From an uncultured Lachnospiraceae bacterium (GTDB lineage: Bacteria; Bacillota; Clostridia; Lachnospirales; Lachnospiraceae), in the NCBI GenBank assembly GCA_964483545.1, contig CAZACC010000001.1, forward strand, positions 5,883 to 69,882: a DNA stretch of 64,000 nt, in the 5' to 3' direction. Below, piece after piece: positions 4,768-62,879 of the stretch. The position numbers were made by a program, and so were the translations under genes. The stretch's first letter is position 1, and every line of letters begins with the position of its first letter. The notes below the pieces were generated by a model. That model was not told the DNA's origin, did no database searches, and worked only from the letters and a program-made list of their open reading frames with translations.

Positions 4768-6855
4768 ATGATAGAAAAGTTGTTTTGTAATATAATACGT
4801 TTTCTGATGATGATTGTACTGGGTTATCTGACAATTGTCAGTGTGTGTTCCACCTGCTATATTTCCGAGTATGAACATGTATTTTTTGTAAAGGATCAGG
4901 CGGTATTGAATTGTTTATGGATTATACTTGCGATCACAGCAGCTGTATTGGCTAAGAAGTATGTACATATATCAGATGACATATTACGTAGGATAGAAAT
5001 AGCCTGCTTAATTACGCTGACCTTCATTTTGCTTTATTTTGTGTTTAGCTCTCAACTGAAACCGATTTATGATCAGAATAAAATATTCCAGATAGCCGGC
5101 AGAATGTATGAACATGATTACATTGATTTTGTTCCGAGCGGGTATGCACAGCGATGTGATAATCAGTGGGGAATTCTTCTATTCCTGCTGGGTATATTTA
5201 AGCTGTTTGGTAATCAAAATCTGCTGATTCTGCAGATAATCAATGTGATCTCGATTATTATTGCAATTGTATTCATTCCGAAAATCTGTGACAGGGCAGC
5301 GAATCAAAGAACCGGCAGTCTGATCGGTATCGTGTTATGCTTTTTTATTCCTTTGTGGGGTTATGCTACATTTATATATGGAACGCTGCCGTCCTATGCC
5401 TTAGCCATAACGGCATGTTATTTTCTGATTGTGTATATAGAAGAGCATAAGATCAAGGACGCAGTTCTGATGGGCTTATGCATTGGAGCTGCCATAACCC
5501 TAAAGACGAACTCCGTCATATTTTGGATTGCAATCATGTTATTTCTCTTATTACAGACGATACTGCAGAAGAGACCTCGCATATTGCTTTCCGTGCTGTG
5601 GCTTGTCATTGTGTATTTTGGCAGCGCATTTATTGTGAATCAAAGTATAGCATCTATAACAGAGCTTCCGCATGAGGGGCTTCCCCGTACAGCGCAAATG
5701 GCAATGTCCCTACAGGATAATTCAATGAAGACATCCGGTTGGTATAACGGATATATGGAGAGTGTATATGAAGAGAACGGGTATTTACACAATCAAACAA
5801 ATCAGGCGGCTGTGGAAAATATAAAGGCGTCGTTAGAAGGATTTATTGCGAATCCATCTTATGCAGCAGGCTTTTTTGTGAGAAAGATTGTATCTCAGTG
5901 GAATGAACCGACGTTTGAGAGCTTATTTATTCAGACAAGAAGAGAATCTCTGGTAGAACCTCCCGGTTATCTGGATCTGCTTCTGCATAACAATCAGGGG
6001 AATCCGTTTGTAACCGACATGATGGATGTCATGCAGACCTTGATTTTGTTTGGAGCATTTTTCTTTTTCCTGAATGATAGTAAGAACCGGAATGTAATGA
6101 AATATTTACCCGCAGTCATTATTTTAGGAGGGTTTTTCTTTCACATCATCTGGGAAGCCAATTCACAATACATTATTACTTATTTTATACTGTTGATACC
6201 ATATGCAGTACTCGGTTATCTGAATGGTTCTGATTGTGTCTGCGAAATGATAACGGTTCATAGTGCTAAGAATAGATTTTTTTATGAAATATGTATCTTC
6301 ATTGGACTTGTATTAGTAATTAATGTATTGCCCCAAAATGATTTAACCAGTGTACTGAAGCCTCATTGGAATGATGAGGAGTATGCAGAGTATCGCAGTG
6401 AGTATGAGGAAGCCTTTCGACCCATCTCTTATGGACGATATTTCATTTCTCCTTATGATGCAAATGATGAGATTATGGGTTTGCCAGAAGCGTCAGCAGA
6501 AGAGGGCACGAGTATAGAGTTATATACTCTGGATAGTCAAAGAGACGACAGGGTGCTGATCAGTCCGTGTGAAGGAGGATATCATCTCAGGCGGCAGGAA
6601 TCGCAGCTTGTATTTGATGTGGCGGGCGGAGTTGTTGAGCCGGGAGGTATGCTGCAGCAGTGGAGATATATTGGCGAGGATGGACAGGTGTTTCATTTTG
6701 CAGATGCCGGAGATGATGCATACTTTATTCTGTGCGGGGAACGGTGTGCGGTGACATATGATCAGGGGAGCAGGAAGGTAAAGCTCGAAGAATTTATAGG
6801 TAAAGAGAACCAAATGTGGAGAATCAGAAAGAATAGAGAAAAAACAGATGAATAA
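4768..6855 (+). CDS. polytopic GT-C-like membrane glycosyltransferase with C-terminal ricin-type (beta-trefoil) lectin domain
   Basis: About 480 aa of multi-TM sequence resemble ArnT/PMT_2/YfhO-type proteins. A soluble tail carries QxW repeats (MLQQWRYIG, ENQMWRIRK). A good RBS (GGGGAGAGAG) precedes the start. Confidence 0.5.
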   Translation: MIEKLFCNIIRFLMMIVLGYLTIVSVCSTCYISEYEHVFFVKDQAVLNCLWIILAITAAVLAKKYVHISDDILRRIEIACLITLTFILLYFVFSSQLKPIYDQNKIFQIAGRMYEHDYIDFVPSGYAQRCDNQWGILLFLLGIFKLFGNQNLLILQIINVISIIIAIVFIPKICDRAANQRTGSLIGIVLCFFIPLWGYATFIYGTLPSYALAITACYFLIVYIEEHKIKDAVLMGLCIGAAITLKTNSVIFWIAIMLFLLLQTILQKRPRILLSVLWLVIVYFGSAFIVNQSIASITELPHEGLPRTAQMAMSLQDNSMKTSGWYNGYMESVYEENGYLHNQTNQAAVENIKASLEGFIANPSYAAGFFVRKIVSQWNEPTFESLFIQTRRESLVEPPGYLDLLLHNNQGNPFVTDMMDVMQTLILFGAFFFFLNDSKNRNVMKYLPAVIILGGFFFHIIWEANSQYIITYFILLIPYAVLGYLNGSDCVCEMITVHSAKNRFFYEICIFIGLVLVINVLPQNDLTSVLKPHWNDEEYAEYRSEYEEAFRPISYGRYFISPYDANDEIMGLPEASAEEGTSIELYTLDSQRDDRVLISPCEGGYHLRRQESQLVFDVAGGVVEPGGMLQQWRYIGEDGQVFHFADAGDDAYFILCGERCAVTYDQGSRKVKLEEFIGKENQMWRIRKNREKTDE

Positions 6856-7552
6856 ATTAATGATTGTAATGCCTGCATACAATGAGGAAGAAAATATTGA
6901 GATGGTAGTTAAGGAGTGGTATCCGCTGTTGGAATTAGCTGATGAAGAGTCAAGAATGGTTATTGCAGACAGCGGGAGTAGTGACCGGACTCATGAAATC
7001 TTAGCAGCCTTAATGGAGAGTCATCCACGACTGGAGATCCTGAGTGATACTTTAAAGCAGCATGGTCCGAAATTGATTGCATTGTATCAGTATGCCATTG
7101 ATGGCGGAGCAGACTACATTTTTCAGACGGATTCAGATGGGCAGACCATTCCGGAGGAGTTTGCTGCGTTCTGGGAGCTGAGAGAACAGTATGATGGAGT
7201 ATTTGGATATCGAAGTGTCAGAGGAGACGGACAATCAAGAGCGTTTGTGGAACGGGTTGTATGTTTACTTTTAAGAATGTATTATGGGATAAAGGTTCCT
7301 GATGCAAATGCCCCTTTCCGGCTGATGAAAACAGAGTCTGTGAGAAAATATCTTTCGAGATTCACTGCAGATTATAATTTACCCAACATCATGTTAACTG
7401 CTTATTTCGTATATTATAAGGAAAAGGCAGCTTTCAGATCCATAACATTTCAACCTAGACAGGGAGGCGTTAACTCTATTAACATTCCTAAAATTGTGAA
7501 GATTGGCTGGAAGGCTTTAAAAGACTTTTCTGATTTCAGGAAGGGAATGTAA
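6848..7552 (+). CDS. family 2 glycosyltransferase (polyprenyl-phosphate sugar synthase-like)
   Basis: GT-A signatures are present: MIVMPAYNEEENIEMVV and QTDSDGQ. It overlaps the stop of the upstream GT-C-like gene by 8 nt. Confidence 0.8.
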   Translation: MNKLMIVMPAYNEEENIEMVVKEWYPLLELADEESRMVIADSGSSDRTHEILAALMESHPRLEILSDTLKQHGPKLIALYQYAIDGGADYIFQTDSDGQTIPEEFAAFWELREQYDGVFGYRSVRGDGQSRAFVERVVCLLLRMYYGIKVPDANAPFRLMKTESVRKYLSRFTADYNLPNIMLTAYFVYYKEKAAFRSITFQPRQGGVNSINIPKIVKIGWKALKDFSDFRKGM

Positions 7553-9235: not shown

Positions 9236-9256
9236 AAAATCAAAAGGTCGGAGCAT

Positions 9257-22028: not shown

Positions 22029-22508
22029 ATGTTGGAACAATCATACTATGATAAAACTGACGAAATCATACAAAGTCATGGGACCGAAGCCAGGTATCTT
22101 ATTCCGATCATGCAGGACATACAAAATGAGTATAGGTATTTGCCATCTGAACTTCTGATTTATGTCGCGAAGAAGCTGGACATTACTGAGGCAAAGGCTT
22201 ATAGTGTTGCGACCTTTTATGAGAACTTTTCTTTTGAAAAGAAAGGAAAGTACATTATTAAAGTATGTGATGGAACGGCTTGCCATGTGAGAAAATCTTT
22301 ACCGCTTTTGGAACGTTTGTATCAGGAATTAGGACTATCGTCCAATCAGCATACAACAGACGATATGCAGTTTACGGTAGAAACGGTTTCTTGTCTGGGC
22401 GCATGTGGTCTTGCGCCAGTATTGACGGTGAATGAAAAAGTACATCCCTCTATGACACCAGATAAGGTATCAGAACTTATAGAGAAGCTGAGAGGTGAGG
22501 ATGCATGA
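22029..22508 (+). CDS. hydC: [FeFe] hydrogenase NuoE-like [2Fe-2S] subunit
   Basis: Thioredoxin-like 2Fe-2S pattern: VCDGTACHV...SCLGACGLAPV. Confidence 0.85.
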   Translation: MLEQSYYDKTDEIIQSHGTEARYLIPIMQDIQNEYRYLPSELLIYVAKKLDITEAKAYSVATFYENFSFEKKGKYIIKVCDGTACHVRKSLPLLERLYQELGLSSNQHTTDDMQFTVETVSCLGACGLAPVLTVNEKVHPSMTPDKVSELIEKLRGEDA

Positions 22509-24394: not shown

Positions 24395-24412
24395 GATAGG
24401 GAGGAAAATACC

Positions 24413-26098
24413 ATGGATTATATGACAATAGATTCCTTAACGGTACCTATTGAAGGAGAAAAGAATATATTATCAGTTATCCGTAAAGCGGGTATAGATT
24501 TGCCTACATTTTGCTATCACTCTGAACTATCTATCTACGGTGCATGCCGTATGTGTGTGGTGGAGGATGACAAGGGACGCATTTTTGCGTCCTGTTCTGA
24601 GCAGCCGAGACCAGGCATGGTCATTCAGACGAATACGAAGAAGATTCAGCAGTACCGTAAACTGATCATAGAATTGCTGCTGTCGACACACTGTCGTGAC
24701 TGTACAGTATGCACCAAGAATGGAATGTGTGATCTGCAGAGTCTGGCCTATCGTGTAGGAGTTCATGCAGTCAGATTTCTGAATAACAGAAAAGAAAAGC
24801 CTCTTGATATGAGCTCTCCAAGTATTGTCAGAGACCCAAATAAATGCATTCTATGTGGGGATTGTGTACGTACATGTTCAGAAATTCAGGGAATTGGTGC
24901 ATTAGATTTTGCATATCGTGGATCTAAAATGGAGGTAACGCCTGCATTTGGCAAGACACTTGCCGAGACAGACTGTGTTGGCTGTGGTCAATGTCGATCA
25001 GTATGTCCTACAGCAGCGATATCTATTAGAACCAATGTAACTGAGGTATGGGATGCAATTGCGAATCCAAAGGTACGTGTGGTGGCTCAGATCGCACCAG
25101 CAGTACGCGTGGCGGTTGGAGATCGGTTTGGATTGCCGAAGGGCGAGAACAGTATGGGCAAGCTGGTATCTGCACTCCGTATGATGGGATTTGATGCGGT
25201 ATATGATACTAATTTTGGTGCAGATTTAACTGTTATGGAGGAGTCTAAAGAGTTTGCGGAGAGACTGGAAAAGAATGAAAAACTTCCGCTTTTTACTTCC
25301 TGCTGTCCTGCATGGGTGAAATATTGTGAGACGAAACATCCTGAATTTGCAGAGAATGTTTCCTCCTGCCGTTCGCCGCAGGGTATGTTTTCTGCGGTTG
25401 TAAAGGAGTATTTTAAGGAAAAGGATAAGGAAGAAGATAAAACGACTTATATTGTGTCTATTATGCCCTGTACGGCCAAGAAGGCAGAAATTCTTCGACC
25501 TGATAATCATACCAACGGTGTACAGGATACAGATATTGTTCTGACTACGGTTGAGATCGTTCGTATGATTCGTCAGGTTGGAATAAAGTTTGAGGAGTTA
25601 GACGGAGAGGCACCAGATATGCCGTTTGGCATGGCATCTGGAGGAGCAGCTATCTTTGGTGTGACAGGTGGCGTCACAGAGGCAGTGCTTCGTCATTTAT
25701 CTGAGAAACATATACATAGTGCGTTATCTGAGATTCAGTACAGTGGAATCAGAGGAACAGAGAACCTCAAGGAAGCAACGGTGATGCTAGGCGACCAGGA
25801 GGTTAAGATTGCTGTGATTCATGGACTTGCGAATGCAGGCAGGCTGCTGGACAGAATCAAAGCAGGAGAAGTATACTATGATTTTGTAGAAGTTATGGCA
25901 TGCCGACGAGGATGTATTCTGGGCGGAGGACAGCCTCTTCCGATGGGATCACGTACCCGTGCTGGACGTACAGAGGGTATCTATCGTGTAGATAAGCAGT
26001 CACAAATTCGGTTTACGGATGACAACCCCGTACTGTCACAGGTTTATGAGGAGATTATTTGTGGGAATGAACATAAACTTTTACATCGGGCGAATTAA
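24413..26098 (+). CDS. hydA: [FeFe] hydrogenase catalytic subunit
   Basis: N-terminal 2Fe-2S and 4Fe-4S domains plus the H-cluster motifs TSCCPAWV, MPCTAKK and VMACRRGCILGGGQP. Confidence 0.9.
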   Translation: MDYMTIDSLTVPIEGEKNILSVIRKAGIDLPTFCYHSELSIYGACRMCVVEDDKGRIFASCSEQPRPGMVIQTNTKKIQQYRKLIIELLLSTHCRDCTVCTKNGMCDLQSLAYRVGVHAVRFLNNRKEKPLDMSSPSIVRDPNKCILCGDCVRTCSEIQGIGALDFAYRGSKMEVTPAFGKTLAETDCVGCGQCRSVCPTAAISIRTNVTEVWDAIANPKVRVVAQIAPAVRVAVGDRFGLPKGENSMGKLVSALRMMGFDAVYDTNFGADLTVMEESKEFAERLEKNEKLPLFTSCCPAWVKYCETKHPEFAENVSSCRSPQGMFSAVVKEYFKEKDKEEDKTTYIVSIMPCTAKKAEILRPDNHTNGVQDTDIVLTTVEIVRMIRQVGIKFEELDGEAPDMPFGMASGGAAIFGVTGGVTEAVLRHLSEKHIHSALSEIQYSGIRGTENLKEATVMLGDQEVKIAVIHGLANAGRLLDRIKAGEVYYDFVEVMACRRGCILGGGQPLPMGSRTRAGRTEGIYRVDKQSQIRFTDDNPVLSQVYEEIICGNEHKLLHRAN

Positions 26099-26130
26099 TT
26101 CAGCATGCGGATGAAAATGGAGAAATCCTG

Positions 26131-27660
26131 ATGAAGGAATGGAATAAGCATCGATATAAATTTATTATGATGGCAGTTTTGTTTGTCACTGAAATAGTAT
26201 GTGGATTTTATGTATGCTATTTTCAGGGAAGGATATTGAATGATGCGTTCAGTCGTACTGCCAATGCTTTTTATGTAATTTTTGTAAAACCGTCCAGATA
26301 TGCCTCCATAGGTCTTGTCTGGAATCCACTACCAAGTACTCTCCAGCTTCCTTTTATTGCACTGGCTAAGATCTGGAGACCATTTGCATCCAGCGGAATT
26401 TGTGCGGTTGTTGTAACAGCAATCTTTGCGGCATTAGCTTCCTATATCATTCTGGATACATTTGAGAGATTAAGTATCGATAAAAAATATGCAATTACGA
26501 TCACTTTGCTTTATACGTTTAATCCGTTTATCTTTTTCTACGGCTGCAATGGTATGAGTGAATCCATTTTTTTTACTCTTGTAATTTACATTGTCTGCAA
26601 TTTATCTATATGGATGAAAATGGGTAAAAGTAAACATCTGGTTAAGATTGCGTTTGCGCTTGTTTTTCTGTTTTTCACGAGATATGAAGCAATTCCTTTT
26701 GCGGCTGCAGTTGGATTATGTGTGATTATACATATTCTGTTTAATAAGAAAGAGCGTATTTACTGGCTTAACAATTCTTTTCGGGAGCGTTACTTTTATG
26801 CAGAGGGGACAATGGTATTGCTGTATACCCCTATGGCTTATGGTGTTTTCTTGTGGATTATCTTTAATTGGGTGATTAACGGAAATCCTCTATATTTTCT
26901 TAATTCAGCTTATTCTAATGTATCACAGAGTATTTTCACACGGGATTTTGGATCACGGTGGGATATTTTGTTCTATGAGATTGAGAGACTGATTCCATTT
27001 ATCCCATTGTTTTTATTGATTATACTTATCTATTTTTACCGCAGACAAATTACTACGACGGATTTTATTGTAATCTTTATATTAAATATCACTCTTATGA
27101 TTTTTCATTTCTGGATGCTGACAAGCGGAAGTTCGTTTGGCTGGCTGAGGTTCTTTTCTTATACGCTGCCTGTCAGTATATCGTTTGTCCCATATATCTT
27201 ATCAGAATCAAAAAAGAAGTCTCTAAAGGTGGATAAGACAGCGATTGTGATTGTCCTGCTGATATCAGGAGGACTTTGCGCCTATGCATTACAGGATAAA
27301 GAATTGGCGAAGGAGGAACTTAATATTACGATTTCTAATGAAGTATATAAAATATCTGATTATATAAACGAAAATCTGTCAGATGAAATGGTATTGATGG
27401 ATGCTTTCTTGACGAATGGAGTCATTTTAAATATAGAAAATATAGATCACCTTGTAGTGAGCAGCAGTCTGAATTTCTATGATTGCGTTGCTGATCCTGT
27501 CGGGAAGGGAATTAACCATATTCTGGTTCCGGACACAAGCGGAGTCGGAAATCTAGATGCCATTAATCTGGCCTATCCAGATCTATATAGTGCAGGGGCA
27601 GATTGGTGTGAGCTAGAAGAAGAATTTGAAGGCTTTAAACTATTTAGGGTAACAGATTAA
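26131..27660 (+). CDS. polytopic membrane protein, GT-C-like, with C-terminal soluble domain
   Basis: At least 10 hydrophobic helices with an acidic first loop (ILNDAFSRT), then about 130 aa of soluble tail. It is the first gene of the MshEN-synthase cluster. Confidence 0.4.
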   Translation: MKEWNKHRYKFIMMAVLFVTEIVCGFYVCYFQGRILNDAFSRTANAFYVIFVKPSRYASIGLVWNPLPSTLQLPFIALAKIWRPFASSGICAVVVTAIFAALASYIILDTFERLSIDKKYAITITLLYTFNPFIFFYGCNGMSESIFFTLVIYIVCNLSIWMKMGKSKHLVKIAFALVFLFFTRYEAIPFAAAVGLCVIIHILFNKKERIYWLNNSFRERYFYAEGTMVLLYTPMAYGVFLWIIFNWVINGNPLYFLNSAYSNVSQSIFTRDFGSRWDILFYEIERLIPFIPLFLLIILIYFYRRQITTTDFIVIFILNITLMIFHFWMLTSGSSFGWLRFFSYTLPVSISFVPYILSESKKKSLKVDKTAIVIVLLISGGLCAYALQDKELAKEELNITISNEVYKISDYINENLSDEMVLMDAFLTNGVILNIENIDHLVVSSSLNFYDCVADPVGKGINHILVPDTSGVGNLDAINLAYPDLYSAGADWCELEEEFEGFKLFRVTD

Positions 27661-27683
27661 AGAAAGAAAAAGAGTCAAAGAAG

Positions 27684-29897
27684 ATGCAAAGAGCAGACAT
27701 GCTAGGTGAGAGACTGGTCAGATCCGGTTATATCAGCAGGGAACAGCTGGAATATGCAGTTTATCGTCAGAAGGAGCTGGGCGGTAAACTGGGTGATATT
27801 TTAGTTGCGGAAAGATATCTGACAGACAAAGAGTTATCTGATTTTATATTTGAAAGTAAAAGCACAAAAATAGGGGAACTTCTGCTGCAGGAGAGATATA
27901 TCACGGAGAGACAGCTGGCTCAGGCGTTGGACTATCAGAAACGTAATGGGGGTCGTATCGGAGATATCTGTGTAGCATTTGGATATGTAAGTGAAGAAAA
28001 GCTTAAAAGAATCATGAACAAACGAAAAAGAGCGCACAGTAAGCTTGGAGAGACACTTATTCAAAAAGAAATCATCAGCGAGGAACAGCTGGATGATGTA
28101 GTTGAGATGCAGCAACGAAGTGGCGGAAAACTTGGCGAGATCTTGTTATTCATGGGATATGTTACGGAAGAAGATCTATATCGTGAACTGGCAAATCAGT
28201 CAGAAATGGGTCGTACTGGAGAAGATAATGGATTGGGTGTTACGGAAAGGCTTCCTTTTGCGCTTGCGACAAAATATAATGCTGTAGTGATTAATAAAAG
28301 GGGTAGTGTCTGTGTAGTAGCTGTAGCCAGTCAATTACCTGAAGATGGGGTTAGAGAAATTGAAAAATTTCTTGGAAAGAAAACGGAGCAGGTATTGGCA
28401 ACCCAAGGTGAAATGAATCAATATTGGGATATCATATATAGAAGAAAGCAGAAACATCAAAGTATATTCGACCTGTACGATTCCCAGCCCGATAACTCAG
28501 CAATCGTTACATTCACATCAAAGCAGTTGGGAGTATTGATTGCAATCGGAGTGTTGCTTGTGTCAGGGTTAATCTTGAACTGGAGAGTAACGCTGTTTTC
28601 AATTAATATCTTTTTTCAGGTACTTTATGCGATCATGACTATATTGAAGCTTTGGATTGTATTAAAAGGAGAGAGAAAAAACACTCAGATTAAGTACAGT
28701 GCAAAGCGTCTTTCAGAGATAGATGAAACCAAGCTACCGATTTATACATTATTAATTCCGGTGTATAAAGAAACGGAGGTTCTGAAGCAGCTGATTTATA
28801 ATATAGAGCAATTAGATTACCCGAAGTATAAGCTTGATGTCAGAATTTTACTGGAAGAGGATGATCGGGAAACAATAGAGTTGGTAAGAACCATGAATCT
28901 ACCGAGCTGTTATAGTTCTATTGTAGTGCCGTCTTCCGCACCTCAGACAAAACCAAAAGCTTGTAACTATGGTCTGATACATGCAAAGGGCGAGTATGTG
29001 GTCATTTATGATGCAGAAGACAGACCTGAACCAGATCAGCTGAAAAAGGCATATTTGGCATTTCAGGAGCTACCGGAAGAATATGTATGCATTCAAGCAA
29101 AACTGAATTATTTTAACAGTAACCAAAACTTTTTAACTAAACTGTTTACCCAGGAGTATAGTATGTGGTTTGAACTGCTGCTGGTAGGAATCATGCAGAT
29201 GGATGTGCCAGTGCCCTTGGGTGAAACATCTAATCATTTCAAGATCAGTTTTCTGAAAGAGGTAGGAGGATGGGATCCCTTCAATGTTACAGAGGATGCG
29301 GATCTAGGAATCCGGCTGTTCAAGTTTGATTATAAAACAGCGATTCTTGATTCACGGACATGGGAAGAAGCTAATTCGAATGTAATTAACTGGATCAGAC
29401 AACGCTCCCGTTGGATAAAGGGGTATATGCAGACATGGCTGGTACATATGCGCCATCCAGTCACATTATACAAAACTCTTGGATTGAGAGGATTTGTCGG
29501 ATATCAGGCAATGATATTAGGCACACCGCTGCTTCCTTTAATCAATCCGATATTTTGGTTTATGATGGTTTTATGGTATACTACTGGAGCAGGATGGATA
29601 CAGGAATTATTTCCCGGCGTATTTTATTATCTGGCTGCCTTTCAATTGATATTTGGGAATTTCATGTTTACCTATATTAATATTATGGGTATGTATAGTG
29701 TAATCAGAGATTGTGCCTTGAAGAAAAAAAGTGTATTTTCATATAAACTGATCAAGTATGCACTATTTACGCCAATATATTGGTTATTAATGAGTATTGC
29801 TTCCTATAAAGCATTGTTTCAATTACTGTCGAACCCATTTTATTGGGAAAAGACGCACCATGGATTATCTGAAGAGGAGGGCGAAGGAGAAACATGA
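27684..29897 (+). CDS. processive family 2 glycosyltransferase (exopolysaccharide synthase) with three N-terminal MshEN/T2SSE_N-type modules
   Basis: Residues 6-172 carry six 24-residue xLGxxLLxxGyIxxxxLxxxLxxQ motifs, paired through 5-residue xxxGG spacers. The T2SSE_N alpha/beta part follows (LPFALATKYNAVVI). The TM/GT2 core has IYDAEDRP, VTEDADLG and RQRSRWIKG. Confidence 0.8.
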   Translation: MQRADMLGERLVRSGYISREQLEYAVYRQKELGGKLGDILVAERYLTDKELSDFIFESKSTKIGELLLQERYITERQLAQALDYQKRNGGRIGDICVAFGYVSEEKLKRIMNKRKRAHSKLGETLIQKEIISEEQLDDVVEMQQRSGGKLGEILLFMGYVTEEDLYRELANQSEMGRTGEDNGLGVTERLPFALATKYNAVVINKRGSVCVVAVASQLPEDGVREIEKFLGKKTEQVLATQGEMNQYWDIIYRRKQKHQSIFDLYDSQPDNSAIVTFTSKQLGVLIAIGVLLVSGLILNWRVTLFSINIFFQVLYAIMTILKLWIVLKGERKNTQIKYSAKRLSEIDETKLPIYTLLIPVYKETEVLKQLIYNIEQLDYPKYKLDVRILLEEDDRETIELVRTMNLPSCYSSIVVPSSAPQTKPKACNYGLIHAKGEYVVIYDAEDRPEPDQLKKAYLAFQELPEEYVCIQAKLNYFNSNQNFLTKLFTQEYSMWFELLLVGIMQMDVPVPLGETSNHFKISFLKEVGGWDPFNVTEDADLGIRLFKFDYKTAILDSRTWEEANSNVINWIRQRSRWIKGYMQTWLVHMRHPVTLYKTLGLRGFVGYQAMILGTPLLPLINPIFWFMMVLWYTTGAGWIQELFPGVFYYLAAFQLIFGNFMFTYINIMGMYSVIRDCALKKKSVFSYKLIKYALFTPIYWLLMSIASYKALFQLLSNPFYWEKTHHGLSEEEGEGET

Positions 29898-32167
29898 TCA
29901 ATAAAGTACAGCAGTGGCTTCTATATACAGTATGGGTGATCACAGTATTTTTAGTTTTATCGGTAATGAAGGAAACGGTATATGCAGCTGAAGTAGGCTA
30001 TGTAGATCTGCAATTGTTTGAGAAAACAAAAAAAATGGACATGCCTAAAAATACGGCTTCATATTGGTTCACTTTACCAGAAGGTACAATGGTAGATGAG
30101 AACAGCTATCTGATGCTGAATATGAAATTATCCAATACATTGATATATGAGCGTTCCAGCATTACACTGGAGATTAATGAGACAGCATTGGAGACTCAAT
30201 GGCTTCTTGATCTGCAGGAGGATACTGTACGTTCATGGAAGGTGGAGATACCTGTAGATGTGCTGAAAATAGGAGAATTAAATGAACTGAAAATTATTAC
30301 AACTCAACGATCGATAGAAGGAGACTGTGCAGATATAGATAATCCAAGTAACTGGATTAATATATTAAATACATCATATCTTCATATCGCAATAGATAAG
30401 TTTGCAGCACCCAGAATTAATAATCTATATACGTTTCTCTATGATGGTCTTGGGAATAAGGGAACTCTTGAGAACGAATATATATTACCAAAGACAGTGA
30501 CAGATGATCAGATAGAGGGAATGTTTCAGATCTCATCAGCAGTCGGTATGTACTATCCGTATAATGATAATTTGAGTTACTGTGTGTCAACGGGGGCACC
30601 ATCTTCTTCGGAGATCAAGAATAAATATTTTATTGGTTATGATAACAGCTACTCGGAAGATCAGGGAATTACATTTCCTTCTGCACCAATGTCGGAAAAT
30701 ATGGGGTATATTTCAGTTGCGGACAAAACTACGACAGCTCCCTATTATAAAACTCTGATCGTCGGGAAAGATGCCGTTGGATTACAAAAGGCTGTTCAAT
30801 TCTTCTGTGTTAAGGATTTCATGGAAGAAATAACAGGTACACAGATAACGGTCGTAAGTGATCTGGCAACACTACAAAATAAAAACATTCGTCAGGAAGC
30901 TGAAAAAAAAGAATCAGGATATTATAAGCTGGATGATTTCGGATATGATTCGGTCAATCTTGTAGGAGCCTTTCATCAGAGCACAAATTTCTCGTTCTTA
31001 CAGCCAGACGGAATACAAAGTGGAGATGATTCCTACATATTAGTCAGATTCCGACATTCAAAGGCGCTGGAATCAGATCATTCTCTCATGACGGTATATT
31101 TTGATGAGATTGCTGCGGGCAGTGTCAAGCTTTCAGCTTCCAATGCGGATTATGGAGAAATCAAAGTCACAATACCAGATGAATGCCTGAAAAAAAATAC
31201 GATTAATGTAAAGATAGACTGCTATAACTATCTTGGAAAAATTGATTGTTCGAAGGATTATTATGATACTGCATGGACTGTGATTGATAAAGCTACGGAA
31301 ATATACTTTGAACCAGGTGATACAGGTGTTATTCCGACCTTGGCCAATACACCATCTTTTTATTCAAATGGCAATCAGAACAGTATTGTGATGGGGTTAT
31401 CAAAACAACCCTCAGAACAGCAACTGGCAATGGCATGTGAGTTGGCAACTAGGGCAGGACAGAACAACAGAGAAGCTATTTCATGGTCTTTATGCAGGGA
31501 TTGTGGGAAACTTACCGAGGAAGAGACGAAGCAGGATATGATCTTCCTGCAGCAAAATGATGATATCAGCCTCCCAGCGGAAGTTCAGACGGAACTTGGA
31601 ATTGTTCCGCTTGGAGAATACAAGTATTCAATTGCGGGAGATGTTCCTGTAACAGCAGAGATGCTGGCCGGAAAGATTATTGTACAGGTAATCCGTTCTC
31701 CGTGGGACTTTGAGAAGAGAATTTATACCATTACATATAGTGAAGGGGCATCGGAAACATTAGATCAAGTACTTTCTGATAAAGCTATCATAGAAAAGCT
31801 GACAGGGCAGATTGCATTAATTGATCCGACGGGAAAGGTCACAAATTATGAACGTATAGATACCAATCAAAAGGAAGAAAAGGTGCCCGTCACATGGGAG
31901 AGAATAAAGTATCTGGTAGAAAAAAGAACTGGCGTTTCAATCTGGATCGTGATAGGCGCAGCAGCCTTGATTATCATAGCAATCATAGTTTTATTCCGAG
32001 TGATCGGAAACAGGAAGCGGTTTAAACAGGCGGCAAAAAACATGGAACGTGCAAATCAAAAAAGAGACACGACATCGGAGCAAAATGAAGATTTTCCGAT
32101 GGATGAAGAGGAAATCGTATATAAATTTCAGGAGTATGGAGATCATTATCCTGAGGATGAAGAATAA
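29894..32167 (+). CDS. BcsB-like extracytoplasmic synthase partner (N-terminal signal/anchor, C-terminal TM anchor)
   Basis: 4-nt overlap with the synthase gene. A large extracytoplasmic region is followed by one C-terminal TM (VSIWIVIGAAALIIIAIIVLF) and an acidic tail, which is BcsB-like topology. One segment (YLMLNMKLSNTLIYERSSITLEINETAL) resembles the BcsB repeat pattern. Confidence 0.45.
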   Translation: MINKVQQWLLYTVWVITVFLVLSVMKETVYAAEVGYVDLQLFEKTKKMDMPKNTASYWFTLPEGTMVDENSYLMLNMKLSNTLIYERSSITLEINETALETQWLLDLQEDTVRSWKVEIPVDVLKIGELNELKIITTQRSIEGDCADIDNPSNWINILNTSYLHIAIDKFAAPRINNLYTFLYDGLGNKGTLENEYILPKTVTDDQIEGMFQISSAVGMYYPYNDNLSYCVSTGAPSSSEIKNKYFIGYDNSYSEDQGITFPSAPMSENMGYISVADKTTTAPYYKTLIVGKDAVGLQKAVQFFCVKDFMEEITGTQITVVSDLATLQNKNIRQEAEKKESGYYKLDDFGYDSVNLVGAFHQSTNFSFLQPDGIQSGDDSYILVRFRHSKALESDHSLMTVYFDEIAAGSVKLSASNADYGEIKVTIPDECLKKNTINVKIDCYNYLGKIDCSKDYYDTAWTVIDKATEIYFEPGDTGVIPTLANTPSFYSNGNQNSIVMGLSKQPSEQQLAMACELATRAGQNNREAISWSLCRDCGKLTEEETKQDMIFLQQNDDISLPAEVQTELGIVPLGEYKYSIAGDVPVTAEMLAGKIIVQVIRSPWDFEKRIYTITYSEGASETLDQVLSDKAIIEKLTGQIALIDPTGKVTNYERIDTNQKEEKVPVTWERIKYLVEKRTGVSIWIVIGAAALIIIAIIVLFRVIGNRKRFKQAAKNMERANQKRDTTSEQNEDFPMDEEEIVYKFQEYGDHYPEDEE

Positions 32168-32182
32168 CAGAAGGAGTAAGAG

Positions 32183-33100
32183 ATGGATAAACCAGTTTTG
32201 GTCATTATGGCAGCAGGAATGGGGAGCCGATATGGAGGTTTGAAACAGATTGATCCTGTAGACAAGGAGGGGCACAAAATCATAGATTTTTCTATCTATG
32301 ATGCCGTAAGAGCAGGATTTCAAAAGGTAATCTTTATTATTAAGAAGGAAAATGAGGCAGACTTTCGAACCTGTATTGGGGATGTAGTCAAGGGACAGAT
32401 TGAGGTAGAGTATATTTATCAGGAACTGACAGATATTCCACAGGGCTGTACCATCCCAGAGGGGCGTGCAAAGCCTTGGGGCACGGCTCATGCGATTTTA
32501 AGCTGTAGAAATGTAATCAATGGATCTTTTGCAGTCATTAATGCAGATGATTATTATGGCAGAGAGGCTTTCCAGGCAATTTATGATTATATGGCGGTTA
32601 CAACGGATGATGAGAAATATCGTTATGCAATGGTAGGCTATGAGCTTGGAAAGACATTGACAGAGAATGGATATGTATCCAGAGGTGTCTGTGAGACCGA
32701 TGTAGATTCATATTTAACTGATCTTGTGGAACGTACACATATTGAAAAGACTGCTGAAGGTGCGATCTATACAGAGGATGACATACATTATACAGAGATA
32801 TCAACAGACAGTCTGGTATCCATGAATATGTGGGGTTTTTCTAAGAGCTTTATGAAGGAGGCAGAAATTGCGTTTGAGAAGTTCTTTCAGGAAGAAGTAT
32901 CAGAGAATCCCTTGAAGGCAGAGTGTTATCTGCCATCAGTCGTAGATAGTCTGCTCAAGGTGGGAAAGGCGACTGTTAAAGTGCTTTATTCTAAAGACCG
33001 CTGGTTTGGTGTAACGTACAAAGAAGATAAACCTTTTGTAATGGAGTCAATCGCGGCATTGAAGGCAAGCGGCGTCTATCCGCAGAAGCTGTGGGGTTAA
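32183..33100 (+). CDS. sugar-phosphate nucleotidyltransferase
   Basis: N-terminal pyrophosphorylase loop VIMAAGMGSRYGGLKQ and NADDYYG, in a GT-A-like nucleotidyltransferase fold pattern. Confidence 0.7.
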   Translation: MDKPVLVIMAAGMGSRYGGLKQIDPVDKEGHKIIDFSIYDAVRAGFQKVIFIIKKENEADFRTCIGDVVKGQIEVEYIYQELTDIPQGCTIPEGRAKPWGTAHAILSCRNVINGSFAVINADDYYGREAFQAIYDYMAVTTDDEKYRYAMVGYELGKTLTENGYVSRGVCETDVDSYLTDLVERTHIEKTAEGAIYTEDDIHYTEISTDSLVSMNMWGFSKSFMKEAEIAFEKFFQEEVSENPLKAECYLPSVVDSLLKVGKATVKVLYSKDRWFGVTYKEDKPFVMESIAALKASGVYPQKLWG

Positions 33101-34137
33101 TGAAAGATTGATTCGTAATCGTATTGCATTGCGTAATCATACATATGAATCAACGTATCATAATAGTTGTCTTTTGTCAGTTCATGCCTTCCGTCACGCA
33201 TATCTTCGTATAGCATATAGCTGATTTCCTGTGAAAAATGGGAATAGTCACGATAATGATTGAGATCGGTAATAATGTCTGTATCATCTTGAAAATAGAA
33301 GATACGGACATTTTCATATTCTAATAAAGATTCAAAGACATTGATCATTGCAGATACTTCAGCAGCAGCTTCACCACGTCTCGTGCTGTCATCCCAGAAT
33401 AAGATACTATAAGGAGGACAGTAAAAATAGAATTCTACATCAGGACGAGCTTCGATATAGGGCGTAATGGATGCAATAAAGTGATTGCTGTAGTCCATGT
33501 AGGTATCGTAATTTTTTTCGGGCAATATCTGCAGACTTCTCTGTGTATTATAGATACCGAGAACAGTCGACTGATTAAATTGATACTTATGTGCCCATGA
33601 ATAAGCATTGTCAGCGCTGTAATGTTCCCACTTATTATTGATGAGAAATTCGGGCAGATACTCAAATAGAACATCTTTATTCCAGATATAATATACATCA
33701 TTCAGATAATTATGATCGGATAGATAATATGGAATGGTAGTTGGATAATCTCCAGGAACATTTGTCAACAGGTAGGTGTCCATGGAAAAAAGTACATTTT
33801 TCACATGATCCTGCTGCAGTACTTCGTTGAACATGATATCATAATCATCGAAATGTGCACCCTGTAGGCAAAGCTTGACACACCTTTCTCCAAATACGCC
33901 GTCTTCGAACCAGGATTCCTTGAAGTTTTCACTCATGGAAGAACCAATCAGAGCAGTATCATAATCCATGTTGCGGGCGACACCAATCAGTGCATAACGC
34001 TCCTCAGTCTCTACTGCTGCTAATTTGCCAAGCGGTGCATGATAGTGAATAAAAGGGTCAACAATCACTACTGCAGCAGCAATCATGAGCAGTATTCCAG
34101 CAATCCATGCAATTGTAGTGAGTGCAAATTTTTTCAT
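33097..34137 (-). CDS. membrane-anchored DltD/SGNH-like protein (MBOAT partner)
   Basis: Start trimmed to MKKFALTT, preceded by AAGAGG. An N-terminal anchor, a Ser block (ALIGSSMSENF) and a C-terminal DxxH-like block (YRDYSHFS) are present. It lies directly downstream of an MBOAT gene. Confidence 0.45.
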   Translation of the reverse strand: MKKFALTTIAWIAGILLMIAAAVVIVDPFIHYHAPLGKLAAVETEERYALIGVARNMDYDTALIGSSMSENFKESWFEDGVFGERCVKLCLQGAHFDDYDIMFNEVLQQDHVKNVLFSMDTYLLTNVPGDYPTTIPYYLSDHNYLNDVYYIWNKDVLFEYLPEFLINNKWEHYSADNAYSWAHKYQFNQSTVLGIYNTQRSLQILPEKNYDTYMDYSNHFIASITPYIEARPDVEFYFYCPPYSILFWDDSTRRGEAAAEVSAMINVFESLLEYENVRIFYFQDDTDIITDLNHYRDYSHFSQEISYMLYEDMRDGRHELTKDNYYDTLIHMYDYAMQYDYESIFH

Positions 34138-34147
34138 AATAGCCTCT

Positions 34148-35617
34148 TTAAAAATTAACATACAGGAAGGTTCCTACCTCCGAGAAGGAAAGAACAGACC
34201 AGATGAACAGTAGAATCAAGGTGAACATGGTACGTTTATTTGGTTGGAAAGTGGCTGCCCTCTGTCGGATGTTTTTCATGCATGTTCCTGCAATCAAAGC
34301 AAATAGAAGAAAGGCGATTAACAGAACACTGCCCGTATAGTATACAGAGAGGGGTCTGTAGTGCAGCACAATTTTCTGAATCAGGTTGAATTCACTTGGC
34401 AGTACTGTGGCAACCATATCTGCAGAAATTGGCGTAAATCGAAAGGAAATCAGCTGTTGAAGCATCATGTTGGCATAGGTAATGTCTTCTGCTCTGAAGT
34501 AAACCCATGCGATATTTATAAACAGGAAAGTACCGAGCCACCTGAGAAAGGACGGAACCTTCTGCATAAAGCTTTTGCATAGTTTACTGAGACAGATACC
34601 AATTCCATGCAGGATGCCCCAGAGGATAAAAGTGAATGCAGCACCGTGCCATAAGCCGCTGAGCAGGAAAATCAGGAACATATTCAGATAAGTTCGAACC
34701 TTTCCTTTACGATTGCCACCAAGTGGAAAGTAAACATAAACCCGAAAAAAACGAGTCAGCGTGATATGCCAGCGTTTCCAGAATTCATCAATTGATTTTG
34801 CTTTATAGGGAGAATCGAAGTTATCTATCAAATCTATATTCAGTATCAGACAGATACCAGAGGCCATATCACAGTAGCCGCTGAAGTCAAAATAAATTTG
34901 CAGAGTATAGGATAAAATAACGATCAGAGAATTCAGCGTTCCAAGAGATGGAATATTGATGTAACCCCAGTCGACAATGGAACCAAGGTTATCAGCCAAC
35001 AACATTTTTTTTGCAAGACCAAAGGAAAAAGCCAGCATACCTTTGGAAATATTTTCATAATTCAAGGATTTTTTATTCACATCGTTAAACTGGGGGATTA
35101 GCTCATTGTGAAATACGATTGGACCTTGTGTAATTTTTGGGAAAAATGAAACAAATAATGCATAGTCCAGTATTCGATAGCGAATGGAGGAATCACGATA
35201 GCTGTCGACGATAAAAGCAATTTGCTGGAAAGTGAAAAAGCTGATGCCAAGCGGCAGGAGTAGATTACGAAGTAATAAAGAGGTTCCTAAATGCTGATTC
35301 AGAGTTATTGAGAAAAAATCCAGATACTTGAATATGAATAAAGCACCAAGATTGATGCAAATGCCTGCAATCAGAATGATTTTTTTCGGGACTGATTGGT
35401 GAACATGGTCAAATAGAAAAACAATAAAGTAATTTAATAGAATGCTGATTAGAATGACGGGAAGAAATGCGATATTGGTATATGCATAAAACCATAATGA
35501 CATGCCAAGCAGGAACAGCTTGGCAAAATCATAATGGTTTGTTTTGTTGATTGTATAGTAGCCAATTACCGATATTGGCAAAAAGACCAGTACAAACAGA
35601 AAAGAATTGAATATCAT
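34148..35617 (-). CDS. MBOAT family O-acyltransferase (AlgI/DltB-like)
   Basis: LPLGISFFTFQQIAFIVDSYR, FDFSGYCDMA, FWKRWHITLTRFFRVYVYFPLGGNR and SGLWHGA. Confidence 0.85.
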   Translation of the reverse strand: MIFNSFLFVLVFLPISVIGYYTINKTNHYDFAKLFLLGMSLWFYAYTNIAFLPVILISILLNYFIVFLFDHVHQSVPKKIILIAGICINLGALFIFKYLDFFSITLNQHLGTSLLLRNLLLPLGISFFTFQQIAFIVDSYRDSSIRYRILDYALFVSFFPKITQGPIVFHNELIPQFNDVNKKSLNYENISKGMLAFSFGLAKKMLLADNLGSIVDWGYINIPSLGTLNSLIVILSYTLQIYFDFSGYCDMASGICLILNIDLIDNFDSPYKAKSIDEFWKRWHITLTRFFRVYVYFPLGGNRKGKVRTYLNMFLIFLLSGLWHGAAFTFILWGILHGIGICLSKLCKSFMQKVPSFLRWLGTFLFINIAWVYFRAEDITYANMMLQQLISFRFTPISADMVATVLPSEFNLIQKIVLHYRPLSVYYTGSVLLIAFLLFALIAGTCMKNIRQRAATFQPNKRTMFTLILLFIWSVLSFSEVGTFLYVNF

Positions 35618-56439: not shown

Positions 56440-57003
56440 ATGGGACATATGATATTTCAACTGCCGACAATTCATAAGGAGAATTATTTTACTACAGAGG
56501 TGATTGTTTTTGCAATTTCTGTGCTTGTACTAATTATCGGAATTCTTCTATGTCTATGGGGATATAAGTATTTTCAAACATTAGCTGTTATTATACTGGG
56601 ATGCCTATCAGGCTATGTAGGAATCAAATTAACAGATCATCTGACCAATAGTCCTATTATTAAGATGTTTATCTTTACAATTTTTACATTTTTAGGATGT
56701 TGTCTCTTTTATTTTCTATCTATTCTGATTGATGGCTTTCTGAAGATGATTCATTTGAAGAAGGGAATTGCTGGAAAGATGTATATATTGTCAAGTTTAT
56801 TAGGGGCCGCACTGATTGCTTTCATAGTATACCGTATGGTATACGACGGCTGGATAATTTGTGTGATTATTTTTGTTCTCTTTGCAGTTATGGGGATGAT
56901 TTATCAGAAGATTAAAAAGGCATCAAGACCTGAGTTCCACTGTTATGAAGATATCTTCAAGATGAAACCGTTACCAAAAGAGGAGAATAAACAGAATGCT
57001 TGA
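56440..57003 (+). CDS. polytopic membrane protein of unknown function (first gene of the VTC/CotH operon)
   Basis: About 5 hydrophobic helices and an AAGAGG RBS. It overlaps the VTC gene by 8 nt. Confidence 0.5.
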   Translation: MGHMIFQLPTIHKENYFTTEVIVFAISVLVLIIGILLCLWGYKYFQTLAVIILGCLSGYVGIKLTDHLTNSPIIKMFIFTIFTFLGCCLFYFLSILIDGFLKMIHLKKGIAGKMYILSSLLGAALIAFIVYRMVYDGWIICVIIFVLFAVMGMIYQKIKKASRPEFHCYEDIFKMKPLPKEENKQNA

Positions 57004-57691: not shown

Positions 57692-57694
57692 CTT

Positions 57695-58381: not shown

Positions 58382-58392
58382 GGGGATAATTC

Positions 58393-61646: not shown

Positions 61647-61665
61647 GTGTGAGGCGACTGATACT

Positions 61666-62871: not shown

Positions 62872-62879
62872 GAAGAGAG

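What the first reader, a model, noticed from the sequence alone, without database searches (positions are those of the whole stretch)
26131..35617. Non-canonical exopolysaccharide locus: GT-C-like protein, MshEN-synthase, BcsB-like partner and nucleotidyltransferase, with a convergent MBOAT/DltD-like pair
Seen: four co-directional genes have tiny gaps or overlaps (26131, 27684, 29894 overlapping by 4 nt, 32183). Two convergent genes (34148-35617 MBOAT and 33097-34137 SGNH/DltD-like) end in a shared TTAA. The opposing stop codons overlap at 33097-33100, with no room for a terminator.
Inference: the set would cover precursor activation, c-di-GMP-gated polymerisation and export, an extracytoplasmic partner with a single C-terminal anchor (BcsB-like topology), and polymer O-acylation. 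The extra GT-C-like membrane protein has no counterpart in classical bcs or pga operons. The sugar specificity of the synthase cannot be read from the sequence.
Basis: partly seen in the sequence, partly recalled or inferred. Interest (0 to 1): 0.65.

Follow-up and report, generated by a model that had tools for sequence, protein, structure and literature searches.

The report
Two gene units, not one locus
The six genes are real and correctly named, but they form two independent units: a widespread, apparently undescribed three-gene sugar-polymer export machine that probably senses c-di-GMP and always carries an extra lipid-sugar-using transferase, and an older neighbouring unit that acylates some cell-surface polymer.

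Summary
All six ORFs, their gaps and overlaps and the TTAA stop overlap are confirmed. All six fold or family calls hold.
- The 509-aa protein has a GT-C fold.
- The 737-aa protein is a processive GT2 with three N-terminal MshEN-type modules.
- The 757-aa protein is a BcsB homologue.
- The 305-aa protein is a nucleotidyltransferase.
- The 346-aa protein is DltD-like.
- The 489-aa protein is an MBOAT.

The single-locus reading fails.
- In 82 loci with the DltD-like gene, none carries the GT-C, synthase or BcsB genes.
- MBOAT is adjacent in 69 of those loci. The nucleotidyltransferase is adjacent in 39, usually convergent with touching stops.
- In 80 GT-C loci, the synthase is present in 74 and BcsB in only 33.
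- The nucleotidyltransferase, DltD-like and MBOAT genes appear only in the window's closest relatives.

The GT-C is the synthase's most constant partner. In relatives it travels with polyprenyl-phosphate sugar synthase (44/80), GDP-mannose pyrophosphorylase (44/80) and GtrA flippase genes. It is sometimes fused to them.

Best model: a synthase-dependent exopolysaccharide, probably c-di-GMP-gated, is glycosylated outside the membrane from a lipid-linked sugar, probably mannose. The polymer is unknown. I found no published description. This is a new variant of a known kind.

The parts
26131..27660 (+). Unit A, gene 1: GT-C-fold membrane glycosyltransferase (509 aa). Candidate catalytic Asp38 is encoded at 26242-26244.
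   Evidence: AF2 model: pLDDT 91.6, pTM 0.92. The top 37 Foldseek PDB hits are all GT-C enzymes: DPY19, STT3/PglB, ArnT (TMq 0.57), AftA, ALG9 and Pmt4. D38 and R42, just after TM1, are invariant in 45 homologues. There is no Pfam hit. A few homologues hit PMT or PMT_2.
27684..29897 (+). Unit A, gene 2: processive GT2 synthase (737 aa) with an N-terminal c-di-GMP-sensor-like region.
   Evidence: Pfam Glyco_trans_2_3 1.2e-20 and MshEN 2.2e-6. NCBIfam NF053729 1.5e-51, three stretches. The motifs PVYKE, KPKACNYG, DAED, TED, QRSRW and a C-terminal WEKTxHG are at least 90-98% conserved in 120 homologues. The GT domain is 25% identical to E. coli BcsA (E about 1e-13), and weaker to PgaC and NfrB.
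27699..28199 (+). Three tandem 53-residue MshEN_N-type modules (residues 6-58, 62-114, 120-172).
   Evidence: Module HMM. 112 of 122 proteins scanned (120 database homologues, the window protein and E. coli NfrB) have three modules. Only half-motif 149-172 fits the published relaxed motif exactly (motif from PMC5013675).
29894..32167 (+). Unit A, gene 3: BcsB-family extracytoplasmic partner (757 aa). It has an N-terminal signal or anchor, a C-terminal TM helix (residues 683-701) and an acidic cytoplasmic tail.
   Evidence: Pfam BcsB 1.2e-31, 110 bits against a cut-off of 21. hhalign against E. coli BcsB: 94%, E 1.4e-7, 595 columns including the TM anchor. Hydropathy.
32183..33100 (+). Unit B: 305-aa sugar-phosphate nucleotidyltransferase-like protein. 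Specificity is unknown.
   Evidence: Pfam NTP_transferase 9.8e-11. PDB 3pnn, an uncharacterised protein, 9.5e-83. It lies next to the DltD-like gene in 39 of 82 loci, none of which carries the synthase module.
33097..34137 (-). Unit B: membrane-anchored DltD-like SGNH acyltransferase (346 aa). An alternative start at 34161 gives 354 aa.
   Evidence: Invariant GSSMSEN (Ser67) and DYSH (Asp297, His300). AF2 pLDDT 88.9. The top 10 Foldseek hits are DltD structures.
34148..35617 (-). Unit B: MBOAT acyltransferase (489 aa) with a fused C-terminal acyl-shuttle motif, FLYVNF.
   Evidence: Pfam MBOAT 1.9e-31. PDB DltB 6.9e-22. FxYxxF occupies the last six residues. The motif is defined in bioRxiv 10.1101/2024.09.17.613324.
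6848..7552 (+). Candidate only: a small GT2 (234 aa) that might supply a polyprenyl-phosphate sugar donor. It overlaps a second GT-C gene (4768-6855).
   Evidence: Weak PgfS (2e-11) and ArnC (3e-9) similarity. A 51%-identical homologue sits directly upstream of a paralogous GT-C of this family in L049. A link to unit A is not shown.

Best explanation
The region holds two independent units.

Unit A (26131-32167) is a three-gene module: a GT-C glycosyltransferase, a MshEN-GT2 synthase and a BcsB homologue. It is a synthase-dependent exopolysaccharide machine.
- The GT2 polymerises a nucleotide sugar and threads the chain through its own membrane channel. This is inferred from the D, D, D, QxxRW motifs, a BcsA-like gating-loop motif and the BcsB partner.
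- Activity is probably switched on when c-di-GMP binds the three N-terminal MshEN-type modules. This is inferred and untested.
- BcsB receives the chain outside the membrane.
- The GT-C then transfers a sugar from a polyprenyl-phosphate donor onto the emerging polymer. The sugar is mannose in most relatives. This step rests on gene neighbourhood and gene fusions.
- The backbone sugar is unknown.
- In this genome the donor-making genes are not in the module and must lie elsewhere.

Unit B (32183-35617) is an older Lachnospiraceae block: a nucleotidyltransferase convergent with a DltD-like SGNH protein and a PatA/AlgI-type MBOAT.
- It most likely O-acylates a cell-envelope glycopolymer, with an acyl-CoA donor.
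- It is not dedicated to unit A.
- Unit A sits where relatives have a DUF1846 gene.
For: Two units.
- Among 82 loci with the DltD-like gene, none has GT-C, synthase or BcsB. MBOAT is adjacent in 69, the nucleotidyltransferase in 39, and DUF1846 follows it in 27.
- The tight convergent stops are conserved in these loci.
- Among 80 GT-C loci, the three unit B genes occur only in L005 and L006, and also in L003 and L004.

Module A is real.
- The synthase is present in 74 of 80 GT-C loci. In 67 it lies on the same strand within 2.6 kb.
- All seven synthase-centred loci examined have the GT-C: the window, L001-L004, L170 and L171.

The GT-C uses a lipid-linked sugar.
- It has a GT-C fold with an invariant Asp after TM1.
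- A GtrB-like GT2 is in 44 of 80 loci, ManC in 44 and a separate GtrA in 19.
- The Paenibacillus locus L057 reads ManC/PMI, synthase, GT-C, GtrB-like (PgfS 1.8e-68, ArnC 1.5e-42), GtrA.
- Natural fusions exist: GT2+GT-C (P0366) and GT2+GtrA_DPMS_TM+GT-C (P0380).

c-di-GMP.
- The MshE-related domain model scores 171.9 bits against a cut-off of 38.
- The triple module is conserved.

BcsB.

Unit B chemistry: SGNH triad and DltD fold, and the FLYVNF acyl-shuttle motif.
Against: - No polymer, binding or activity data exist.
- Five of the six 24-residue half-motifs deviate at one position from the published relaxed motif. Three of them deviate at position 10.
- The window's own module has no ManC, GtrB or GtrA. 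None was found by tblastn in the 64 kb except a weak 234-aa GT2 about 19 kb away.
- 21 of 80 loci likewise lack all three donor genes.
- The GT-C acceptor could be a protein or lipid rather than the polymer.
- ManC could feed the synthase itself.
- In the window lineage and in a 71%-identical relative (L003), all six genes stay adjacent although both flanks differ. Some functional coupling of unit B to unit A in this clade is therefore not excluded.
- The nucleotidyltransferase is now only 15 nt downstream of bcsB and is probably co-transcribed with it.
Confidence: 0.6

Rival explanations
1. Single six-gene locus. The nucleotidyltransferase activates the precursor for the synthase, and the MBOAT/DltD-like pair O-acylates the same polymer.
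For: The genes are adjacent. There is a 15-nt gap between bcsB and the nucleotidyltransferase gene. All six genes remain together in L003 and L004 (71% identity) despite different flanks. Acetylated synthase-dependent polymers are known from Wss and Ccs (PMC7710045). NfrB loci with BcsB plus O-acetyltransferases are also reported (PMC8669472).
Against: None of 82 loci with the DltD-like gene carries the synthase module. 76 of 80 GT-C loci lack the three genes. The ancestral order hydrogenase, DUF1846, nucleotidyltransferase, then DltD-like and MBOAT, then FtsH exists without the module.
Confidence: 0.15
2. Unit A is simply a Gram-positive cellulose synthase, BcsAB, making beta-1,4-glucan. The GT-C plays an accessory or unrelated role.
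For: BcsA is the best characterised match to the GT domain: 25% identity over 255 aa, E about 1e-13. A BcsB homologue is present. A gating-loop-like WEKTxHG motif is present.
Against: There is no PilZ domain. KPKACNYG replaces the BcsA-type KAGNLN motif, whereas the window's other GT2, at about 62880, has EGAKAGNLN. The NCBIfam CelA score is 55 bits against a cut-off of 699. There is no glucanase gene in the locus. ManC, GtrB and GtrA are strongly linked in relatives. BcsB is dispensable in 41 of the 74 loci that have the synthase.
Confidence: 0.12
3. The GT-C is a protein or lipid mannosyltransferase, PMT-like or lipomannan-like. Its acceptor is BcsB, another secreted protein or a glycolipid, not the synthase product.
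For: Several homologues weakly hit PMT or PMT_2, and some are annotated GT39. The ManC plus DPMS-like plus GT-C set is the same kit used for actinobacterial protein O-mannosylation (my knowledge of Ppm1/Pmt).
Against: The constant neighbour is the synthase (74 of 80), not BcsB (33 of 80). Compact Paenibacillus operons contain only ManC, synthase, GT-C, GtrB and GtrA.
Confidence: 0.13

Closest known systems
BcsA-BcsB bacterial cellulose synthase
   Same: A processive membrane GT2 with D, D, D, QxxRW motifs and a gating-loop-like motif. A BcsB partner with a C-terminal TM anchor. A link to c-di-GMP control.
   Different: The sensor is three N-terminal MshEN-type modules, not a C-terminal PilZ. 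The protein ends right after the gating-loop motif. The GT domain is only 25% identical. There is no BcsC, BcsZ or BcsQ. A GT-C partner is present. BcsB is missing in over half of the family's loci.
NfrB (E. coli c-di-GMP-activated ManNAc-polymer synthase; PMC8669469, PMC8669472)
   Same: A GT2 fused to an MshEN-type c-di-GMP sensor. Some NfrB loci carry BcsB and O-acetyltransferase genes.
   Different: NfrB has its MshEN region at the C-terminus, with two module matches (residues 490-538 and 692-716). Its GT domain is barely similar (E 0.002). Its partners are NfrA and YbcH. There is no GT-C.
Listeria PssC/PssD/PssE (PMC4125290)
   Same: A Firmicute GT2 synthase paired with a BcsB homologue, under c-di-GMP control. 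The Listeria polymer has a side-chain sugar, galactose on a ManNAc backbone.
   Different: The receptor is a separate degenerate-GGDEF protein. A GH8 hydrolase belongs to the system. How the side chain is added, and whether a GT-C is involved, could not be checked here.
Three-component extracytoplasmic glycosylation systems (GtrA/GtrB/GtrC, CsbB/GtcA/YfhO, PgfS/PgfM, ArnC/ArnT)
   Same: A GT-C enzyme is linked to a polyprenyl-phosphate GT2 and a GtrA flippase in relatives, including fusions.
   Different: These systems decorate O-antigen, teichoic acids, proteins or lipid A. Coupling to a synthase-dependent polymer was not found in the literature searched.
MBOAT-SGNH acyltransferase pairs (PatA/PatB, AlgI/AlgJ/AlgX, WssH/WssI, CcsH/CcsI, DltB/DltD)
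   Same: Unit B has an MBOAT with a C-terminal FxYxxF motif and a membrane-anchored SGNH partner with a Ser-Asp-His triad.
   Different: The SGNH partner has the DltD fold, but no DltA, DltC or DltX was found. The partner is not AlgX/DHHW type, unlike the window's second pair at 60213-62871. The target polymer is unknown.

Membership tests
BcsA-BcsB cellulose synthase | Processive GT2 with D, D, D, QxxRW motifs | tested here: met
   DAED, TED and QRSRW are conserved in at least 90-98% of 120 homologues.
BcsA-BcsB cellulose synthase | C-terminal PilZ c-di-GMP domain on the catalytic subunit | tested here: not met
   There is no PilZ hit in Pfam or NCBIfam. The protein ends 8 residues after the gating-loop-like motif.
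BcsA-BcsB cellulose synthase | BcsB partner with a C-terminal TM anchor | tested here: met
   Pfam BcsB 1.2e-31. hhalign against E. coli BcsB 94%, E 1.4e-7. TM at residues 683-701.
BcsA-BcsB cellulose synthase | Equivalog-level similarity to CelA/BcsA, and a beta-1,4-glucan product | tested here: not met
   TIGR03030 scores 55 bits against a cut-off of 699. Identity to E. coli BcsA is 25%. The product itself is not testable here.
NfrB-type MshEN glycosyltransferase | GT2 followed by a C-terminal MshEN, at NfrB equivalog level | tested here: not met
   PRK11234 scores 64.8 bits against a cut-off of 1170. The domain order is reversed and the module is tripled. The GT domain matches at E 0.002.
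MshEN c-di-GMP receptor domain | 53-residue module of two 24-residue motifs | tested here: met
   NF053729 scores 171.9 bits against a cut-off of 38, in three stretches. Caveat: only one of the six half-motifs fits the relaxed published motif exactly.
MshEN c-di-GMP receptor domain | Actual c-di-GMP binding | not testable with these tools
   Needs ITC or DRaCALA.
GT-C glycosyltransferase superfamily | Multi-TM GT-C fold with a conserved acidic residue in the first extracytoplasmic loop | tested here: met
   The Foldseek top 37 hits are all GT-C. D38 is invariant.
GT-C glycosyltransferase superfamily | Membership of a curated GT-C family (GT39/PMT, ArnT and others) | tested here: not met
   There is no Pfam hit for the window protein. 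NF047440 scores 38.5 bits against a cut-off of 200. There is no PDB sequence hit.
Gtr-type three-component glycosylation system | GtrB-like polyprenyl-phosphate GT2 and GtrA flippase encoded with the GT-C | tested here: inconclusive
   Absent from the window's module and from the 64 kb, except for a weak 234-aa GT2. GtrB-like genes are present in 44 of 80 related loci, and separate GtrA genes in 19. Fused forms exist in P0366 and P0380.
Clostridial cellulose synthase (Ccs) | CcsA with PilZ, a non-BcsB CcsB, a GH5 CcsZ, and an MBOAT plus DHHW pair | tested here: not met
   There is no PilZ. A true BcsB is present. There is no GH5. The SGNH partner has the DltD fold, not DHHW.
Dlt D-alanylation system | DltA, DltC and DltX alongside DltB and DltD | tested here: not met
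   TIGR04091 scores 141 bits against a cut-off of 375. No AMP-binding or carrier-protein gene was found among the window ORFs scanned. The MBOAT carries the fused FxYxxF motif typical of non-Dlt MBOATs.
MBOAT-SGNH acyltransferase pair | MBOAT with a C-terminal FxYxxF motif, plus an SGNH partner with a Ser-Asp-His triad | tested here: met
   FLYVNF lies at residues 484-489. GSSMSEN and DYSH are invariant. The fold is DltD-like.

The most novel reading that the evidence does not exclude
Unit A represents an undescribed hybrid route of polysaccharide assembly. The backbone is made and exported by a c-di-GMP-gated synthase. A dedicated GT-C enzyme branches it outside the membrane from a polyprenyl-phosphate sugar. 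The GT-C, not BcsB, is the synthase's obligate extracytoplasmic partner across Bacillota, Chloroflexota and other phyla. A triple MshEN array gives a new way of gating a synthase.
Probability: 0.4. Interest if true: 0.75.

Novelty: new variant of a known kind. Interest (0 to 1): 0.58.

Why it matters
Synthase-dependent exopolysaccharides (cellulose, PNAG, alginate, Pel, the Nfr polymer) are usually treated as linear chains modified only by acylation, deacetylation, epimerisation or pEtN addition.

A conserved pairing of such a synthase with a GT-C enzyme and lipid-linked mannose genes would mean that branching sugars can be added outside the cell. That would join two pathways usually considered separate.

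The module is widespread. The GT-C family has 615 clusters at E of 1e-30 or better. It occurs in solventogenic and acetogenic Clostridium, Desulfitobacterium, Paenibacillus, gut Lachnospiraceae and Dehalococcoidales.

It would give c-di-GMP a concrete exopolysaccharide target in the anaerobic and spore-forming groups that carry the module.

It also shows that adjacency and tiny gaps can mislead. Half of the apparent operon belongs to an older neighbouring unit.

Tried and rejected
- c-di-GMP riboswitch or other RNA: Rfam found nothing in the window.
- Promoter and terminator scan: counts equal those of shuffled controls, so it is uninformative.
- PDB sequence searches with profiles of the GT-C, the DltD-like protein and BcsB gave no hits. 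Fold search and hhalign were needed instead.
- NfrB-like ManNAc synthase: rejected for the catalytic domain. The similarity lies almost entirely in the MshEN region.
- Ccs identity: rejected. A Ccs-like locus does appear at the window's end.
- Romboutsia mixed-linkage glucan synthase: it has a PilZ and no BcsB, so it is not comparable.
- Diguanylate cyclase genes as neighbours: 7 of 80 GT-C loci against 1 of 82 control loci. This is too weak to use.
- Literature searches found no description of a GT-C joined to an MshEN synthase.
- Whether Listeria PssA/PssB or B. subtilis YdaL is a GT-C could not be checked.
- GC content does not mark the module as foreign.
Full report
**1. Observation**

- 26131-27660: 509 aa, + strand.
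- 27684-29897: 737 aa, + strand.
- 29894-32167: 757 aa, + strand.
- 32183-33100: 305 aa, + strand.
- 33097-34161: 354 aa, - strand, or 346 aa from the ATG at 34137.
- 34148-35617: 489 aa, - strand.

The gaps are 23 nt, then -4 nt (ATGA), then 15 nt. The sequence GGTTAATG at 33095-33102 shows both TAA stops sharing TTAA at 33097-33100.

One correction is needed. The two - strand genes are co-directional. The convergent pair is the nucleotidyltransferase gene and the DltD-like gene.

The GT-C gene begins only 32 nt after an [FeFe]-hydrogenase gene. No Rfam family matches anywhere in the window. Promoter-like and terminator-like sites are at background frequency.

The closest genomes are Lachnospiraceae MAGs, at 91-95% protein identity.

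**2. What each gene encodes**

*The 509-aa protein.*
- It has no Pfam hit.
- With a 45-sequence alignment it folds confidently, at pLDDT 91.6.
- Its 37 best PDB matches are all GT-C glycosyltransferases: DPY19, STT3/PglB, ArnT, AftA, ALG9, Pmt4 and Emb.
- Asp38 and Arg42, just after the first TM helix, are invariant. GT-C enzymes carry their catalytic acid at that position; this is my knowledge of ArnT, PglB and Pmt.

*The 737-aa protein.*
- It has a GT2 domain (Pfam 1.2e-20) and an MshEN hit.
- NCBIfam's MshE-related c-di-GMP-binding model matches three times, at 171.9 bits against a cut-off of 38.
- The three 53-residue modules lie at residues 6-58, 62-114 and 120-172. Three modules are present in 112 of the 122 proteins scanned.
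- Only one of the six 24-residue half-motifs fits the published relaxed motif exactly (motif from PMC5013675).
- The catalytic motifs are almost invariant. These are DAED, TED, QRSRW and a C-terminal WEKTxHG that resembles the BcsA FxVTxK gating loop.
- The GT domain is 25% identical to E. coli BcsA (E about 1e-13). It is weaker to PgaC (about 1e-6) and NfrB (0.002). The NfrB similarity lies in the MshEN region.

*The 757-aa protein.*
- It is a BcsB homologue: Pfam 1.2e-31.
- Profile comparison with E. coli BcsB gives 94% probability over 595 columns, including the C-terminal TM anchor.

*The 305-aa protein.*
- It is a nucleotidyltransferase. It is closely related (9.5e-83) to an uncharacterised solved structure, 3pnn.

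*The 346-aa protein.*
- It has invariant GSSMSEN and DYSH motifs.
- Its model matches DltD structures best.

*The 489-aa protein.*
- It is an MBOAT, closest to DltB.
- It ends in FLYVNF. This is the FxYxxF acyl-shuttle motif that non-Dlt MBOATs carry fused to the protein (bioRxiv 10.1101/2024.09.17.613324).

**3. The six genes are two units**

I collected 82 loci that encode relatives of the DltD-like protein.
- None contains a GT-C, synthase or BcsB gene.
- MBOAT is adjacent in 69. Absences fall at or near contig ends.
- The nucleotidyltransferase is adjacent in 39. All of these are in the clade with at least 46% identity.
- DUF1846 follows the nucleotidyltransferase gene in 27, and ftsH lies beyond the MBOAT in many.
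- In L089, L095 and L098 the order is hydrogenase, DUF1846, nucleotidyltransferase, then DltD-like and MBOAT, then FtsH. This is the window's backbone without unit A.
- The convergent arrangement holds in 36 of 43 complete pairs. In 25 the gap is 24 nt or less, and in 12 the stops overlap. The TTAA overlap is therefore an old feature of unit B.

I also collected 80 GT-C loci from named genomes. The three unit B genes occur only in the window's nearest relatives.

One caveat remains. In L003 and L004, at 71% identity, all six genes are still adjacent although both flanks differ.

**4. Unit A across genomes**

In the 80 GT-C loci:
- the synthase is present in 74, and in 67 it lies on the same strand within 2.6 kb;
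- BcsB is present in 33;
- a GtrB-like polyprenyl-phosphate GT2 is present in 44;
- a ManC-type GDP-mannose pyrophosphorylase is present in 44;
- a separate GtrA is present in 19;
- 59 loci have at least one of these three donor-pathway genes.

The taxa include Clostridium, Acetobacterium, Desulfosporosinus, Syntrophomonas, Oscillospiraceae, Lachnospiraceae, Paenibacillus, Cohnella, Sporolactobacillus, Dehalococcoidales, Flexilinea and a Planctomycetota MAG.

Paenibacillus apiarius (L057) has a compact operon. It reads ManC/PMI, synthase, GT-C, GtrB-like (PgfS 1.8e-68, ArnC 1.5e-42) and GtrA, with no BcsB.

Synthase-centred look-ups always showed the GT-C next to the synthase.

A search of 1.84 billion representative proteins found 615 GT-C family clusters at E of 1e-30 or better. 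Two of them are fusions: GT2+GT-C, and GT2+GtrA_DPMS_TM+GT-C.

**5. Mechanism**

*Shown.*
- The folds, motifs, gene linkage and fusions described above.

*Inferred.*
- c-di-GMP binds the N-terminal array and activates the GT2.
- The GT2 polymerises and exports a chain.
- BcsB guides the chain outside the membrane.
- The GT-C adds a sugar from a polyprenyl-phosphate donor. That sugar is mannose where ManC is present.

*Open.*
- The backbone sugar is unknown.
- The window's module lacks donor genes. The only candidate in the 64 kb is a 234-aa GT2 at 6848-7552, beside a second GT-C.

Unit B most likely transfers an acyl group from acyl-CoA onto a cell-envelope glycopolymer. The route would run through the MBOAT tyrosine shuttle to the DltD-like serine. 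In L088 the same genes sit beside a UDP-galactopyranose mutase gene.

**6. Comparison and novelty**

The module shares parts with four kinds of known system.
- BcsAB.
- NfrB (PMC8669469, PMC8669472).
- Listeria Pss (PMC4125290).
- Gtr-type glycosylation systems.

It fails defining features of each; the membership table gives the details. It is not the Ccs system (PMC7710045). Five literature searches found no description of it. I rate it a new variant of a known kind.

Noticed in passing
window 60213-64000: A second synthase-dependent locus. An MBOAT (ending FIYFNF) and an AlgX/DHHW SGNH protein are followed by a BcsA/CcsA-like GT2 with EGAKAGNLN, DADMIP, TEDFATG and QRTRWARG motifs. The GT2 runs off the window end. 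It resembles a Ccs-type acetylated-cellulose locus.
   Followed up: partly
window 4768-7552: A second GT-C (695 aa, PMT_2 plus a ricin-B lectin domain) overlaps a 234-aa GT2 with weak PgfS/ArnC similarity. This is a possible polyprenyl-phosphate sugar synthase and GT-C pair. A 51%-identical GT2 sits beside a paralogous GT-C in L049.
   Followed up: partly
window 7760-10327 and 22029-26098: DUF1846 (UPF0371-type, NF010184 4e-244) lies upstream of the nucleotidyltransferase gene in relatives. Here it sits about 23 kb away, followed by a DUF4422 gene. Unit A occupies its usual place after the hydrogenase operon.
   Followed up: partly
window 26098-26131: Only 32 nt separate the [FeFe]-hydrogenase gene stop from the GT-C start, with no terminator-like hairpin. 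Unit A may be read through from the hydrogenase operon.
   Followed up: no
L170 3697-5370 and 15185-16102: In one relative the module lies beside a serine recombinase gene and about 5 kb from a response-regulator-GGDEF gene. This hints at mobility and local c-di-GMP supply.
   Followed up: no
P0362, P0404, P0408, P0493 (GT-C family representatives): Some family members carry long extra regions. One has a 1000-residue Thr/Pro/Ala-rich tail. Others have C-terminal repeats. One actinobacterial-looking member has an N-terminal Ser/Thr kinase domain.
   Followed up: partly
L033 and L049 (Oscillospiraceae HV4-5-C5C); P0208 and P0222 (Clostridium sp. W14A): Two paralogous GT-C genes of this family occur on the same contig. 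In L049 the second copy has no synthase nearby.
   Followed up: no
window 56996-60009: VTC-domain, DUF4956 and CotH kinase-like genes lie in a row. This looks like a polyphosphate or spore-coat-related cluster unrelated to the finding.
   Followed up: no
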